The translations under genes were made by a program, and so were the position numbers. A DNA stretch of 62,597 nt, counting the filler, from Globobulimina sp. (Eukaryota): the NCBI GenBank assembly GCA_003354225.1. It is 22 parts of 22 records of this genome, joined end to end, with 100 filler letters (N's around TTAATTAATTAA, not from the genome) between each part and the next. Parts side by side here need not be neighbours in the genome. Positions count along the whole stretch, not along the records: positions 11,408 to 14,158 come from PIVH01005065.1; 21 more parts are not named here. One strand, written 5' to 3'. Below, in pieces: positions 11,408 to 45,366 of the stretch; position 1 is the stretch's first letter, and each line of letters begins with the position of its first letter. The notes under the pieces were generated by a model. That model worked only from the letters and a program-made list of their open reading frames with translations. It was not told the origin of the DNA and did not search any database.

Positions 11408-13566
11408 TTATATATCTTATTTCCTTTATCGAAATTGTGCATATGTTTACAGGCTTTAATCGCCAGCAAATGAGACACATCATTGATAAGCTCCTCATAT
11501 TCATCATACACTGTCAGCACCTCTGGATAATATTTATTGTCACAGAAACTGCTCATCATACAATTAATAGTTACAACAGTTTTTTCTTCCTCTTTGATAT
11601 CATCGAATAACGTTTTTGACTCTTGAATGTAACCAAAAGTACCATAGAAATCAATCAATGTATTTTTATACTCAATGCTTTGCTTTTTAGCAGTTTCGAC
11701 CTGTTTTAAATGAATTTCTTTTCCTTTTGCAAAATCTCTGAGCACAGAGTACACATTCAACGCATAAATATGCGATATATCATCTTGTAATTCCTGATAT
11801 TCATCATATATACAAACCGCATCAGAATGACAATTATTTAGAATCAATGCTTGCATCAAACAATTAATACTCACTGCATTTTTATTAGTAATCTCATTGA
11901 ATATATAATTTGCAGTTTGAATGTCATTAAAATGACCATAGAAATTAATCATACAATTTTCAACTTCAACACTGCGCTCAATGTCTCTCAGATTGCTGTC
12001 TGCGATGATCTGTTGACCCATTGCTTTGTCGTCTGTATTTATGCAGGCTTTCAAAGCAAACACATTTGAGATATTATCGATTAACAACAAATTATCTCCA
12101 TATATTTCTAAAGCATTTGCATATAATTCATTGAGAATATATGCCTGCATCATACTGTTTATTGTCGATGTGTTATTCCTCTTATTCTCATTTATTGAGT
12201 TATACACATTTCGAGCGGCTGCTATATCACTAATACTCCCATAAAAACTGATGATGCCATTTAATAACTCAATGCTATGACTATTACTACGCAATGCCAC
12301 ATGCTGTGTAATTATATTGTGACACTGCGCAATATCCCCAATATTATGACACGCTTTGATTGAAAATAAATATGTGGTGTCATCAAACACATATTTATTT
12401 TCAAAACGTGTATAGATGGACAAGGCCTCATTATTACGACTATTATTGACCAGTCCTTGCAACATGCAATTAATAACCACAATATTTTTGTTTTCTATAT
12501 CATTGAATATGTGCAATGCTCTGTCAATATCACCAAAATGGGCATAAAATTGAATTAAAATATTTCTTACTTCAACACTATGATTATTGCGGTTATTAAA
12601 TAACTCGTGTTGCTGTATTATAATATCTCCGCTTGATTTATCATGCAAATGGATGCACGCTTTCAGAGCGAGTAAATGTGTGATATCGTTATGAAATGAA
12701 CATTGTTTATACAAAATTAATGCTTGTTCGTTTGCATGATTATGAATGAACCATTTCATTAAACTGCCGATACATTGCACATTTACCTTATTTTTGGCAA
12801 TGGAATTAAATATCATTTGCGCAGTGTCAATTTCACCAAAATAGCCATAAAAGTCAATCAAATTTGCAAATAATTCAATGCTGTGATCTTTATTTTTATT
12901 CATGGAGATAATGCTGGAATGAATCTCTTTTCCTTTGGCAAAGCTGTGCAGATTTTTGCAGGCTTTCAGCGCCAATAAATGTAATATGTCATCATGGAAT
13001 CTATCATATTTTGCATACATTTGTAAAGCTAATTCATTCGAATTGTTCTGAATCAAACATTTTATCATCGTGCTGACACAGATTTTATCTTTGAAACTTT
13101 CATCAATGGAATCAAATATTTGCAATGCATGGTCATGCTCATTTGCATGAGAATAGGCATTGATTAATGCGGTTTTAGTGATGATATCATTAATGTTGAC
13201 ACTGTTTTCAATGTCTTTTAATATTGGAATGGATGAGTTAGCTTTGTCAATATGCATTGATTTGATGCAGCATTCGATTATTAATGGGAATGAAATGCCG
13301 TTTATAGTTTTGATGTCATTCCAAATGGAAAATATTTGATGTTGATGTTGGAACTGTAGACATATTTTGAGGAAGGAATTTACTGCAAAATCATTCTTCT
13401 CTTCGTCAATTTTATTGTAGATTTCGATTGCTTTGGTAACAATCTTTTGGTTATGTTGAATTGCATCGAAATAGAAACTTTGTTTCCTGCGATGTAAACT
13501 TTTTAATATCTCTGTAGCTCGGTAGTTATTGATCCGTTTGCGTGATTTTGCTTTTTTTATTTTCAT
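11408..13566 (-). CDS. PPR protein with PLS-type triplet array; 3' truncated by contig end
   Basis: About 6 cycles of S (SIEL.NxLIDFYG.FG.I..A..IFN.I), P (NVV.INCM...L..N..N.EAL..Y) and L (DDI.HLLALKAC.......GKEIH) motifs. Confidence 0.9.
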
Positions 13567-13831
13567 ATTTGAGGTTGAACAATGATGACAGCACAGTTTA
13601 TGCACTTTAACAACATCTATTGTTTATAATTATAATTAACATTTTTCACTATTTGAAACAAATAATCTCAATTCATACTTTTTTGTACTGTTATTCTCCA
13701 AACTTTGTGCTTAGTGGACATGATGTTGTGGTTTGGTCCGCATTTTCTGGAGAATTCTGTTCATTTGATCGATTGCAAGAAATATTCACATATTTTAAGA
13801 TTACAAATTTACAACACAAACACCACACAAT

Positions 13832-14258: not shown

Positions 14259-14625
14259 GGCTACAAACAATATTTCCTCGATCTACATGTGGTAAGAGAT
14301 TTATTGCTTCTTCAATGGGGCCTCCCATAGCCGTATATTCGAGCCGCTTATCCCAACCAAAATTACCTACTGTGGAAAATCCAGAAGTTACCACAAGAGT
14401 AGGCAATGGTGGTGACTTCCCTAGTAGTATCTCGCCCCAACTATTACAGGTAAGATGGGCTTGCTGCCAAAGTTCGATGGCCATTTTTGTACATTTGATA
14501 GCATCTTGCTCAGTACCTGCACTGGTTGGTGCTCCCATATAGCCTATGATAGTGTCTCTCACAAATCGGTCTACGGTTGCACCATGAGCAAATGCAATTT
14601 CCATCAAAGTAGAAAGGTAACTGTT
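14259..14625 (-). other. Bacterial-type class III adenylate/guanylate cyclase fragment
   Basis: NSYLSTLMEIAFAHGATVDRFVRDTIIGYMGAP...DAIKCTKMAI...VTSGFSTVGNFGWDKRLEYTAMG matches the HGGTIDKFIGDAIM..FGAP / VGNFGS..R.DYT..G pattern. Visibly higher GC than the PPR part. Confidence 0.75.
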
Positions 14626-16785
14626 TATAAGTGCTGTCATCATACAATTAATAACAACAACATTCATTTTTCCGTCATCGGACATAGAATTAAATACTTT
14701 TAGCGCCAGATCCATATGTTTTAATTTGGAGTAAAAGTCAATCAATGCAGTTTTAATAAACACACTTTGCTCATCATTTAAAGCAATAATTCCATCATCG
14801 ATTTCTTTGCCTTTTTCAAAGTTTGAAAGATTTGAACAGGCTCTGATTGCTAATAAATGAGACACTGAATTTATTTTATTTGTTAATTTATATTCATCAT
14901 ATAATGAAAGTGCCATTTCATTCTTATTGTTATTTATCATAGCTTTCATCACACAATTTACAGAAATTATGTCTGCTTCATTGGTTTCCTTCATTTCAAA
15001 AAACATACTTTCAACTTCCAATATGTCAGCAAAATGTCCATAGAAATCAATTAAAGTATTTTTTAGTTGGACTGATTGATATTTATTCTTTTTATTGATA
15101 TTCTCAATGATATCATATCCGTTATCCAATTTATTCCCAGCAATACAAGCTTTTATCGCTTCAATATGTGATATATTATCAGTCAGTGACTCATATTTCT
15201 CATAAATAAACAAAACATTGTCATATTTGTGACATCTGTTATAAACATTCATCAGTGTATTAATTGTAACACAGGTCACGACATCATTTTTATTGAAATA
15301 TTTTTCCGCATTGCTAATATCTTCAAAATCTCCATAAAAATCAATCAAACTATTCCGCAGTTCAATGCTTAAATCATTTCTTTCTTCAAAGTGCTGACTG
15401 CTTATTATTTGTTGTATTCTTTCTTTTTCTTTCAAATCATTGATATTCAAACATGATTTAATTAATAATGTATGACTGACATCATCTCGTTTAGCATTCC
15501 ATGCATTATTTTCATAGAATACAACTGCTTGCTCAAATTGTTGGTTATTTATCAGAGCAGTCATCATCGAATTTATGGTCACGACATCTTTTTTTTCGTT
15601 TACAACGGAATTGAATATCTTTGTGGCTGTTAGAATATCGCCAGAATTGCCATAAAAATCAATCAATATATTTTTTAATCGAATGGAAGCATTGTTATTC
15701 AGCATATTATGTCTATCAATTACCTCTTGTCCATAATCAAAATCCTTCAAATTGATGCAAGCTTTGATGCATAAACAATGTGTCAATTCATCGTAAAATG
15801 AATATGAAAAATATTTCTTATAAATTGACAAAGCTTCTGCATTCAACTTATTATTGATTAGGACATTGATGATGGTATTAATACTGACAATGCTTCCTTT
15901 ATTATCGGCAATTTCATTGAACATATTCATAGCTGTGACAATTTGCGATTTACCACCACATTTCCCATAAAAATCAATCAGCGCATTATGTAATTCGACA
16001 CTGTGAATCTGTTTATTTTGAGTGATTTTTGAATGAATAGCTTTTCCATTGTCAAAATCCATGCAGTTTGTACAAGCTTTTATCGTCATACAATGAGATA
16101 TCTCATCCTGTAATATTTCATATTGATTGTATAGATTAAAAGCATTCGTATTGTATCCATTATTAACGTAAACAGTGAGCATTGCATTCAATGAAACTGT
16201 ATTTTTATCATTGATACCATCAAATTCCTGTAATGCAGTGTTGATTTGTCCAAATTTCCCGTAAAAATCAATCAATGCAGTTTTGACAAATATTGTGTTT
16301 GTATTTTGTGTCTTGATTTTCGTATTCAAAATTTCTTTCCCTTTATCAAAATTAGCAATGTTAGCGGATGCCTTTAAGCCTAAAATATGTGTTTGGTCAT
16401 CGGTTAAATGGTGATAAGTATCATAGAGTTGCAGTGCTTTTTCATTCTGGTGATGTTTTATTAATATTTTCATCATAACACCTAAAACCACCGTATCTTT
16501 TTGATTATCGTTGATAGATTCAAATACGGCCAATGAGGATTGTAGGTATTTGTTGTTTATTCCGTATGCATTAATTAATGATGTTTTGATAAAAATATCA
16601 TTGTCATAATAATCTTTTATTAATGAGTGGATATATTTTATTTCTTTAATATTACCATTATAACCTCTTATTATCTGGGAAATATTTATTGAACATTGTT
16701 TTAATTCTGTTCTATTTAATTTATAGTCACATTGTTTCATTAATTTTATGGTTTTTAGCCATTCATTCACATTTCCAGTCTGCAA
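14259..16785 (-). CDS. PPR protein with PLS-type triplet array, running in frame into a class III nucleotidyl cyclase-like fragment (probable chimera); partial
   Basis: About 20 PPR motifs in strict S-P-L order, e.g. TIFVKTALIDFYGKFGQINTALQEFDGINDK / NTVSLNAMLTVYVNNGYNTNAFNLYNQY / DEISHCMTIKACTNCMDFDNGKAIHSKI. Abrupt switch after MMTALIN at ~14625. Confidence 0.88.
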
Positions 16786-17109
16786 ATTATTTCCTTTTGT
16801 TTCTTACAATAAATAATACACGTTTTTCATCAGTTATTCAACACAAATTGCATACTTGATAGACATTGTAGGGAATCATGAATTTTTTGCTTCATAAGGC
16901 TGATTGCATTATTATATTATTTATATTTGAACAAGCTGTTTTTTTCTCAAAAACTTGGTGACTTCACAAAACATAATGTGGCATATTCATATTACGTGGA
17001 TGTTATGCCNNNNNNNNNNNNNNNNNNNNNNNNNNNNNNNNNNNNNNNNNNNNTTAATTAATTAANNNNNNNNNNNNNNNNNNNNNNNNNNNNNNNNNNN
17101 NNNNNNNNN

Positions 17110-43863: not shown

Positions 43864-45366
43864 ATGAAGCTCAAGACCATGGCTCTCAGAAACACAAAAT
43901 TAATCACCAGGAAATGCTCCACCTTCATCATAATCCACCGCAATTTCTGCGAGGCTTTATTTGAAGTCCAAGCAGAGTACAAATACGATACTTTCCGACA
44001 TGCCATAAGTTGCGCAGATGGTATCGATGTCATACAAAAGAAAATGGGCACCATAAAACACATAAACGCATCAAAAAATAAAACAGTCCATTCCTCAATT
44101 TACAGTGCAGCAATTAAACGCGCACAAGAATTGAATGAATACTCTGAGTGTTGGAGGTTGTACAATGAAGCCAAGCACGAAAGTTGCATTGACATTTATT
44201 TACTGACCCAAATGATTAATATAACATCGTCATTCGTGGAAACACAATTTCTGTTTGATTATGACCATAAAAACTCGAAAATGTACAACAAATCAAAAGC
44301 AGAAGTGGCCAAACATAAAATGCTGAGCAGAGTGCATCAGTTATACAATGAGATGAGATATGAATTTAAGTTGCAAGCCACGAATGCGACCTATTCGTCG
44401 TTAATTAATTCATGCTCAAAGTTCAAAAGTTTTATTGGCGCGCAAAGATATTGGAAGCTATATTGCGAGGACAAGCATTTAGAGCGACACATCGATGTTT
44501 ATTCCGCGATAATTTACAGCCACGTTAATAAAACAGATATGATCGGAGCTATGAAATTATTTAATGAGATGATAAATATTTATAATTTGCAACCAAATGG
44601 GAAGATTATAAGTAAATTATTGTCCGGATTTGCCCATCTTATTATGATGAGGAAAAAAAATATCTCAAAATTTATGGAAATTTCACAGTTGGTCTCCGAA
44701 GCGGAACAATTAATTAAAACGTACTTACAAAATATTCATGCCAATATTGAGGTATTTAATGCGATTTGCAATGTTTATGCGTGTGCTGGGGATGTTGTGT
44801 CTTGCTTTGATATTTTGCATTGTTTATTGGATAAAAAGTTGCCGGCAAATTATAATATTGTGGTTGCAGCACCGCTGCCATCGCCAAACATTTATACATT
44901 TAATACATGTTTGAAATCATTGATTTATTGCGAGGAATTGTATGAGAATGAAAATACGAAACATAATAATTTAAATGTGTGGAGATTGGTTGATTTCATA
45001 TTTTCAGCAATGAATGAATATGGCATTGAGAGAGATTGTGTGACATATTCGACATTGTTTCATTTGTGCGGCAATTCAATGGATGATGATATTAAACCAG
45101 ATTTGGATAAAGCAATCTCATTTTATTTACAATTGTCAAATTCACAAACTGTTATTTCAAAGAAATGTATGTATAGTTTGCTGATCACTGCATTACAATT
45201 TTATGATTATGAGGGAAACGCAGAACTGCAACCAACTGCAAAACAAAGTAAATATGAATTTATTGAATGGTGGTTATCGGAAGCGAAAGATTATAGAGTT
45301 CAATGTAGTTTATCTATTCATCAATTACTTGATATTAAAGCTAAAAAATTTCGAATACCAAAATAA
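43864..45366 (+). CDS. P-class PPR protein, probably mitochondrial
   Basis: Basic presequence. PPR motifs ATNATYSSLINSCSK, DVYSAIIYSH...AMKLFNEM, PNIYTFNTCLK, RDCVTYSTLFHLC. No PLS periodicity. Confidence 0.8.
   Translation: MKLKTMALRNTKLITRKCSTFIIIHRNFCEALFEVQAEYKYDTFRHAISCADGIDVIQKKMGTIKHINASKNKTVHSSIYSAAIKRAQELNEYSECWRLYNEAKHESCIDIYLLTQMINITSSFVETQFLFDYDHKNSKMYNKSKAEVAKHKMLSRVHQLYNEMRYEFKLQATNATYSSLINSCSKFKSFIGAQRYWKLYCEDKHLERHIDVYSAIIYSHVNKTDMIGAMKLFNEMINIYNLQPNGKIISKLLSGFAHLIMMRKKNISKFMEISQLVSEAEQLIKTYLQNIHANIEVFNAICNVYACAGDVVSCFDILHCLLDKKLPANYNIVVAAPLPSPNIYTFNTCLKSLIYCEELYENENTKHNNLNVWRLVDFIFSAMNEYGIERDCVTYSTLFHLCGNSMDDDIKPDLDKAISFYLQLSNSQTVISKKCMYSLLITALQFYDYEGNAELQPTAKQSKYEFIEWWLSEAKDYRVQCSLSIHQLLDIKAKKFRIPK

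What the first reader, a model, noticed from the sequence alone, without database searches (positions are those of the whole stretch)
11408..13566. Second independent PLS-type PPR gene: the family looks heavily expanded
Seen: a separate contig with ~6 S-P-L cycles of the same consensus (SIEL.N.LIDFYG / NIVVINCM / DDI.HLLALKAC...GKEIH), clearly diverged from the 14.6-16.8 kb gene, with no intron in 2.1 kb. A third, P-class PPR lies at 43864-45366. Inference: 2 PLS genes among 22 length-sorted (effectively random) contigs suggests a large genome-wide family. The C-terminus is off the contig, so E/DYW is unknown.
Basis: partly seen in the sequence, partly recalled or inferred. Interest (0 to 1): 0.75.

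Follow-up and report, generated by a model that had tools for sequence, protein, structure and literature searches.

The report
Foraminiferan plant-style RNA-editing guide protein
This gene of a foraminiferan (a shelled marine protist) encodes one of about a hundred plant-style RNA-binding proteins and is predicted to guide a C-to-U correction in the mitochondrial cox1 message, which points to a large RNA-editing system not yet described in foraminifera.

Summary
Confirmed: 13566-11410 (-) encodes 719 aa with six S-P-L PPR cycles; best solved matches are synthetic PLS proteins. Named relatives are foraminiferan. The genome has PLS/E matches on at least 116 contigs and 34 DYW deaminase domains. 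The probable 3' end (C26815) and two orthologs stop without DYW. Foraminiferal cox1 DNA looks unedited: 21 of 51 departures from conserved residues are repaired by C>T, 2 by T>C; a ciliate-like control gave 0 of 42. Read with the plant code, the array's best match among 109,072 mitochondrial positions lies exactly four bases before a cox1 Pro>Leu site listed beforehand (shuffles 5 of 5000, 73); both orthologs pick the same C. Editing itself is not shown: four consensus-restoring C>T variants occur in runs only guessed to be RNA, and this site was not among them. The scan noted DYW genes on other pieces of this genome before, without target evidence. My paper searches found no report of C-to-U editing in foraminifera.

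The parts
11410..13566 (-). PLS-class PPR open frame (P0001, 719 aa), cut by the contig end inside the sixth L motif
   Evidence: AlphaFold model pLDDT 93.7, all helical hairpins; Foldseek top hit 9kfx synthetic PPR-DYW
11410..13185 (-). Six S-P-L cycles, residues 128-719; fifth+last residues N to C: S TD, P SD, L LS, S AN, P GN, L LS, S NN, P ND, L LS, S NN, P ND, L VS, S NN, P ND, L IS, S NT, P NN, L L?
13186..13566 (-). Basic N-terminus (12 K/R, 1 D/E in the first 30 residues) and three degenerate helical repeats shared across the family
13617..13678 (-). Probable 62-nt phase-1 GT-AG intron (82% A+T); inferred, not seen in RNA
13679..13721 (-). Probable first exon; spliced in frame it gives an acid-free, K/R/S/T-rich leader (13 K/R, 0 D/E in 45 residues) like a mitochondrial presequence; inferred
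   Evidence: ortholog P0005 has a similar-length leader
14260..16803 (-). Paralogous PLS gene on the next contig (P0002), about seven S-P-L cycles, 39% identical
43864..45366 (+). PPR gene of another class (P0003), not of this PLS family

Best explanation
P0001 is a nucleus-encoded, mitochondrion-targeted PLS-class PPR protein of the E type (no deaminase of its own) in a foraminiferan. It reads mitochondrial mRNA one base per repeat with the plant code and marks a C four bases beyond its last (S2) repeat for C-to-U deamination by one of the genome's DYW proteins acting in trans. Its most likely site is the second base of a cox1 proline codon (L081 position 553, CCA to CUA, Pro to Leu). Shown: the array, the family, DYW domains with catalytic motifs, the need for many C-to-U changes in cox1 DNA, the code match. 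Inferred: the 3' end, import, binding, editing, the trans partner. About 0.75 for the editing role, about 0.55 for this exact site.
For: PLS architecture. Family of at least 116 contigs and 34 DYW domains over cut-off; 28 of 30 fetched DYW loci passed a pattern for HxE plus CxxCH. Best own-genome match to the C-terminal part of ortholog P0004 is C26815 (57%, 207 bits against 160 for the next, starting at a contig end); it stops about 30 nt before a gene on the other strand; P0004 and P0005 also end without DYW. cox1 DNA: 21 of 51 departures at columns at least 90% conserved in 42 reference cox1 are repaired by C>T, 2 by T>C, 6 by A>G; 12 of 35 against 0 of 42 in a ciliate-like cox1 over the same region, Fisher p 2e-5; C/T makes up 35 of 65 and 33 of 45 variable sites at codon positions 1 and 2 among 7 cox1. 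Code match: 14.5 of 16.5, joint best of 109,072 positions (83,527 distinct 22-mers), 13 of 14 coded repeats fit, and the one misfit reads A in both orthologs; best of 201 Cs in cox1, shuffled repeat order reaches it at a candidate site in 5 of 5000 and at any C in 21 of 5000; offsets -3 to +3 score at most 9.5. P0004 scores 13 of 13 and P0005 13.5 of 15.5 at the same C. Code residues are better kept than the rest (19 of 24 against 311 of 582; 16 of 24 against 251 of 585). At that codon 92 of 120 related cox1 pieces have Leu and 14 Pro. Runs X1 and X3, which hold the window gene, carry a cox1 with 18 differences from L081, none of those listed in the target. Two contigs in runs guessed to be RNA carry 4 C>T and 3 A>G changes and nothing else beyond the shared species variants; all 7 change a residue, all 4 C>T and 2 of 3 A>G restore the consensus.
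Against: No same-individual DNA/RNA pair. In X6 the contig over position 553 shows C, and most predicted sites are unchanged in the X6 and X8 contigs; the kind of these runs is a guess, and a related strain could explain the variants; 1 of 3 A>G changes moves away from the consensus. With only the seven best-established code pairs, P0001 ties between C553 and C1555, P0004 loses the site, P0005 keeps it. With only the 12 coded repeats read from the window, the site ties with seven other sequences. One other sequence scores 14.5 and has no C at the site; P0004 has two other perfect C matches in L083. Family-wide, 6.5 of 23 arrays have their best cox1 C at a candidate site against 4.8 expected, not significant, and an earlier run on 5 arrays gave no signal at the canonical offset. 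The join to C26815 rests on orthology, with a gap of about 25 residues. C26815 has no Pfam E_motif hit. Only 33 of 70 homolog N-termini meet a simple basic, acid-poor rule (some are truncated). The organism's mitochondrial DNA was not found in the assembly.
Confidence: 0.75

Rival explanations
1. The protein binds mitochondrial RNA, perhaps the same cox1 stretch, but stabilises, processes or helps translate it and directs no editing.
For: It probably lacks DYW; a PLS protein that stabilises an mRNA end is known in maize (PMC4872118, search listing only); no editing seen at position 553.
Against: The match ends exactly four bases before a C whose change restores the majority residue, inside a coding region; the protein keeps a P2-L2-S2-E-like tail shared with DYW-bearing paralogs.
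Confidence: 0.12
2. Foraminiferal cox1 is simply divergent or uses an altered code, there is little mitochondrial editing, and the PLS/DYW family acts elsewhere (nuclear, stolen-plastid or symbiont RNA) or is a relic.
For: Two published studies of foraminiferal cox1 and mitogenomes report no C-to-U editing (passages); 30 of 51 departures are not repaired by C>T; the first-ATG N-terminus is also like a nuclear signal.
Against: One codon (CAT) stands both at His ligands and at invariant Tyr columns, and CCT, TCT and CTT all stand for Phe, which no reassignment explains; C excess runs against a 25% G+C gene; the ciliate-like control shows none; DYW ortholog pairs are shared between species.
Confidence: 0.08
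3. The contig comes from a plant, alga or other contaminant.
For: The assembly does hold stray foreign pieces: a ciliate-like cox1 and a diatom-like cob (assignment recalled).
Against: G+C 31% like its neighbours; nearest homologs at 49-52% are from foraminifera, plant hits only 20-23%; 45 foraminiferal-type DYW domains form one side of a branch against 46 others, support 89, not starred.
Confidence: 0.02

Closest known systems
Land-plant PLS-class E/E+ editing factors (CRR4, CLB19 type) that borrow a DYW domain in trans; synthetic PLS models 9kfx and 5iww
   Same: Triplet array ending P2-L2-S2-E, polar fifth and last residues in P and S repeats and hydrophobic fifth residue in L, predicted target four bases beyond S2, coexistence of DYW-bearing and DYW-less members (PMC11094755 passages).
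   Different: Non-plant host; repeat lengths differ (P mostly 32, S mostly 33, against plant P1 35 and S1 31); GN and GD pairs are common in P repeats (14 of 52); long arrays up to about 1240 aa; no editing shown.
Paradinid (Ascetosporea, Rhizaria) PPR-DYW proteins with mitochondrial C-to-U and A-to-I editing (PMC11946409)
   Same: Rhizarian host, DYW genes, restorative changes of both C>T and A>G type.
   Different: 1-3 DYW genes per strain, words PLS and foraminifer absent from the text, DYW grouped with fungi; here 34 DYW and about 100 PLS genes; paradinid sequences were not in my tree.
Non-plant DYW expansions: bdelloid rotifers, Naegleria/Acrasis/Willaertia, malawimonads; diplonemid PPRD1
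   Same: Lineage-specific expansion of DYW-type PPR genes outside plants; 31 DYW domains in Rhizaria are counted in PMC13386178 (section read).
   Different: Species behind the 31 Rhizaria domains could not be seen (supplement unreadable); PPRD1 is single, P-type and does not follow the code (10.64898/2026.09.04.749523, first part and passages). I saw no site-level code match for a non-plant factor in what I read.

Membership tests
PPR protein | Tandem helix-turn-helix repeats scoring above Pfam PPR cut-offs | tested here: met
   PF01535 79.1 (cut-off 25), PF13041 64.1 (30); model; Foldseek
PLS class | Three distinct repeat types in strict triplet order | tested here: met
   Six S-P-L cycles; aligns in register with 9kfx and 5iww
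PLS class | Plant lengths P1 35, L1 35-36, S1 31 | tested here: not met
   Among 52 seed triplets the modes are P 32 (20), L 35 (17), S 33 (37); plant values from PMC11094755
PLS class | Array closes with P2-L2-S2 | tested here: inconclusive
   Off the contig; present in C26815 and orthologs P0004, P0005; the join is inferred
E subgroup | E1/E2 motifs and no DYW domain | tested here: inconclusive
   C26815 aligns with the family E region and has no room for DYW but no Pfam E_motif hit; DYW-bearing paralogs hit E_motif just under cut-off
DYW subgroup | C-terminal HxE...CxxC deaminase in the same protein | tested here: not met
   Absent from the probable 3' end and both orthologs; present in paralogs
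Organellar C-to-U editing factor | Code residues match the sequence ending four bases before an editable C | tested here: met
   depends on GN, GD, AN and NT pairs
Organellar C-to-U editing factor | The C is read as U in RNA of the same organism | tested here: inconclusive
   C at this site in the one guessed-RNA contig that covers it; four other predicted sites show T
Organellar C-to-U editing factor | Mitochondrial import | not testable with these tools
   Only composition of the N-terminus
Organellar C-to-U editing factor | Loss of the protein abolishes editing, or it confers editing in a heterologous host | not testable with these tools
   Needs experiment

The most novel reading that the evidence does not exclude
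Foraminifera run a plant-scale mitochondrial editing system, tens of C-to-U sites in cox1 alone, served by an independently expanded PLS-E/DYW family that uses the plant recognition code and the plant division of labour (DYW-less guides plus a conserved trans deaminase such as C3365), and the same machinery or a partner also makes A-to-G changes, needed at two invariant glycines. P0001 would be a non-plant editing guide with a predicted site.
Probability: 0.5. Interest if true: 0.88.

Novelty: new variant of a known kind. Interest (0 to 1): 0.76.

Why it matters
Foraminiferal mitochondrial genes have been translated straight from DNA and used for barcoding and trees; if most first- and second-position C/T differences are gained or lost editing sites, those proteins are mistranslated and the trees carry that signal. 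For RNA biology it would add a second large PLS/E/DYW system, far from land plants, in which the recognition code, the four-base offset and the split between guide and deaminase can be tested for conservation or convergence, and it supplies new natural deaminase and repeat scaffolds. One RT-PCR with published primers decides the main claim.

Tried and rejected
No RNA holder listed for the window contig (8 runs hold it, none on record as RNA, 3 guessed), so expression and the intron were not tested; the one read-laying run went to cox1. Mitochondrial DNA in the assembly: PF00115 gave nitric-oxide-reductase-like genes and one ciliate-like cox1 piece, PF00033 one diatom-like cob piece, a DNA search with L081 nothing. 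ADAR-type family PF02137: nothing rang in the genome or the controls, uninformative. Family-wide code test: 5 arrays, no signal at offset 0 and an excess at offset -1 (0 of 200); with 23 arrays of 77 proteins no offset stood out. Absence of G before candidate sites (0 of 42 against 18 of 136) was set aside because the site calling misses Ala>Val sites. Search for an edited cox1 piece from a transcriptome: none of the 120 listed of 152 hits came from EukProt, and DNA or RNA origin is not given. The careful DYW tree did not finish; the quick tree cannot name a donor, and it holds no rotifer, fungal, paradinid or diplonemid rows. The cyclase-like tail of the neighbouring gene had no Pfam hit. No complex prediction was run. 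Literature: searches for DYW + foraminifera, foraminifera + mitochondrial genome + RNA editing, DYW + Rhizaria + pentatricopeptide, foraminifera + C-to-U + mitochondria, foraminifera + pentatricopeptide, foraminifer/COI/RNA editing/pseudogene, PPR-DYW/protist/Naegleria/rotifer/Reticulomyxa and Retaria/mitochondrial RNA editing/DYW (98) showed no report of it in their listings; subscription papers are missing from the library, and the supplements of PMC13386178 and of the diplonemid preprint could not be seen and may list foraminiferal DYW genes.

Full report
Observation. The window is 22 contigs of about 2.75 kb joined by N linkers. Window 13566-11410 on the minus strand is a stop-free frame of 719 residues that runs off its contig. 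It passes the Pfam PPR and PPR_2 cut-offs; its best solved matches are the synthetic PLS proteins 9kfx and 5iww, aligned in register. Profiles built from 52 triplets of this genome give S-P-L six times from residue 128. The AlphaFold model is a helical-hairpin solenoid (pLDDT 93.7) and Foldseek ranks 9kfx first. The 14.3-16.8 kb gene is 39% identical. A short first exon and a 62-nt intron probably lie upstream and would give an acid-free basic leader; this is inferred.

Host and family. Of 83 homologs, 10 were looked up: 9 Nonionella stella, 1 Bolivina argentea; plant proteins come only at 20-23%. The host is therefore a foraminiferan. In its 70-Mb assembly P0001 matched 60 contigs (62 of 215 candidates scored), the terminal L2-S2-E region 82 contigs (113 of 113), and three searches together 116. 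PF14432 gave 35 matches, 34 over cut-off; of the 30 fetched, 28 passed a pattern for HxE and CxxCH, 13 of a long plant-like type and 15 of a short type, 2 were too short. In a quick tree of 91 domains the 45 foraminiferal-type rows lie on one side of a branch (support 89, not starred), with several starred pairs across species, so the expansion predates those species. About 0.9% of contigs this long carry a member, so two in 22 was lucky: the family is near a hundred genes. Repeat lengths differ from plants (P mostly 32, S mostly 33; plant values PMC11094755, passages).

The missing end. The C-terminal part of ortholog P0004 finds C26815 far ahead of other contigs (57%, 207 against 160 bits). 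It starts at a contig end inside an S repeat, carries P2-L2-S2 and an E-like region, and stops just before a gene on the other strand; P0004 and P0005 end at the same place. P0001 is thus probably DYW-less. The join is not shown and C26815 has no Pfam E_motif hit.

Is there anything to edit? The assembly gave no host mitochondrial genes. A pattern from a published rotaliid COI primer (PMC8589990, passages) found 18 loci in metagenomes, 17 of them AT-rich with the cox1 motif and one chance hit. Their DNA-encoded protein has Pro, Ser, Arg, His and Thr where Leu, Phe, Trp, Tyr and Met are conserved. For L081, 14 of 52 departures from 75 bacterial sequences and 21 of 51 from 42 closer references are repaired by C>T, against 0 and 2 by T>C. 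Over a shared region a ciliate-like cox1 gives 0 of 42, three foraminiferal ones 12-14 of 35-37 (p 2e-5 for L081). Among 7 sequences C/T makes up 35 of 65 and 33 of 45 variable sites at codon positions 1 and 2, and 30 of 91 at position 3. This is the pattern expected of C-to-U editing (established for plants; inference here). One search listed 42 candidate sites among 201 Cs.

Reads. Eight runs hold the window contig. Four were laid on L081 cox1. X1 and X3 (one sample, possibly the window's source) carry a cox1 with 18 differences in about 1400 bases, so this gene very likely is the host's, in mostly unrepaired form. X6 has two versions of a 110-base piece: one like X1, one with three C>T and two A>G changes and the same private silent variant; X8 has one C>T and one A>G. 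All seven change a residue; the four C>T restore Leu, Phe, Tyr and Phe kept in 39-42 of 42 references, two A>G restore Val, one moves away. But these runs are only guessed to be RNA, are not the same individual, and their other contigs leave most predicted sites, position 553 included, unchanged. This is a hint, not proof.

Target. The code table was fixed, from recall; TN, TD, NS, ND, NN, NG, NT and GD are borne out by passages of PMC6468296, while AN and GN for A were not seen stated there; the four-base offset is stated in 10.64898/2026.09.04.749523. With one uncoded S repeat in the gap, as in both orthologs, the array was slid over both strands of the 17 loci (109,072 positions). The top score, 14.5 of 16.5, falls on the cox1 sense strand at L081 528-549, which puts S2 four bases before C553, a site already in the list. 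Thirteen of 14 coded repeats fit and the misfit is TN (A) in both orthologs, matching the target. Shuffled repeat order reaches this score at a candidate site in 5 of 5000 and at any C in 21 of 5000; other offsets reach 9.5 at most. The complete orthologs choose the same C of 201 (13 of 13; 13.5 of 15.5). At that codon 92 of 120 related cox1 pieces have Leu and 14 Pro. Against it: one other sequence ties at 14.5 without a C; under the seven core pairs P0001 ties with C1555 and P0004 loses the site; the window's 12 coded repeats alone tie with seven other sequences; and across 23 arrays the excess at candidate sites (6.5 against 4.8) is not significant, though only cox1 was available as target.

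Mechanism. Most likely the protein is imported into mitochondria, binds the cox1 message one base per repeat and presents the C to a DYW deaminase supplied in trans, as for plant CRR4 and CLB19 (PMC11094755, passage). The short, strongly conserved C3365 protein is a candidate partner; this is speculation. Rivals are a non-editing RNA-binding role (0.12), no real editing with another compartment or relic status (0.08) and contamination (0.02).

Against what is known. DYW-type PPR genes outside plants are known, including 31 domains in unnamed Rhizaria (PMC13386178, one section and passages; supplement unreadable), paradinids with mitochondrial C-to-U and A-to-I editing (PMC11946409, one part and passages) and diplonemids (preprint, first part and passages; the word foram does not occur in its main text). 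The two foraminiferal mitochondrial papers mention only a miliolid frameshift and, in PMC10127745, the term PPR does not occur (passages). Eight searches listed no report of C-to-U editing in foraminifera. Earlier notes of this scan describe DYW genes on other pieces of this genome and call editing untested (14 fit, 8 shown); a word search for cox1 evidence found none. They agreed with a reading I already held.

Verdict. Real gene, real expansion, known protein class in a new variant and lineage, with a specific and cheaply testable prediction that foraminiferal mitochondria edit RNA on a plant-like scale. Interest 0.76.

Noticed in passing
window 14260-14628 (-): The neighbouring PLS frame runs on, without a stop, into about 120 residues unlike any family member's tail; they recall a decayed class III nucleotide cyclase (recalled likeness; no Pfam hit). 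A chimeric contig, insertion or missed intron.
   Followed up: partly
L198:912-2939 (G000:C3365): A short PPR-DYW protein with the most plant-like deaminase (HSER, full PG box, DFW end); its last 157 residues are 80-82% identical to two unnamed orthologs, far above the P0001 orthologs. Candidate shared trans deaminase.
   Followed up: partly
L044, L046-L058, L060: A second, long-branch DYW type (15 own, 6 other rows, support 100) without PG box or DYW tail, some fused behind PLS arrays (C2304, P0055). Earlier notes of the scan describe it too.
   Followed up: partly
L081:960 and L081:1005: AGA (Arg) stands at two glycines kept in 39 and 42 of 42 reference cox1, while AGA also encodes conserved arginines in the same gene: A-to-G editing or real substitutions.
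   Followed up: partly
L213 (G000:C263) and P0008: Another ortholog pair scores best on C552, the base next to P0001's predicted site; P0008's top match overall (16 of 16) has an A at the site. Unexplained.
   Followed up: no
L061, L063-L069: Several copies, some broken, of a nitric-oxide-reductase-like gene (heme-copper family, label recalled) with AT-rich flanks, as expected for a denitrifying foraminiferan.
   Followed up: no
L062 and L070: Short contigs with a ciliate-like cox1 and a diatom-like cob (assignments recalled): food or contaminant DNA in the assembly.
   Followed up: partly
L074:2122-2613: An atp9-like frame (label recalled) next to cox1 also has Pro and Ser in its hydrophobic helices, suggesting that the editing need is not limited to cox1.
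   Followed up: no
P0016/P0017 and L219 (G000:C1608): Further arrays with strong matches before candidate cox1 sites (L081 1126, 10.5 of 10.5; 775, 11 of 13.5), but each ties with or falls behind other sequences when all loci are scanned.
   Followed up: partly
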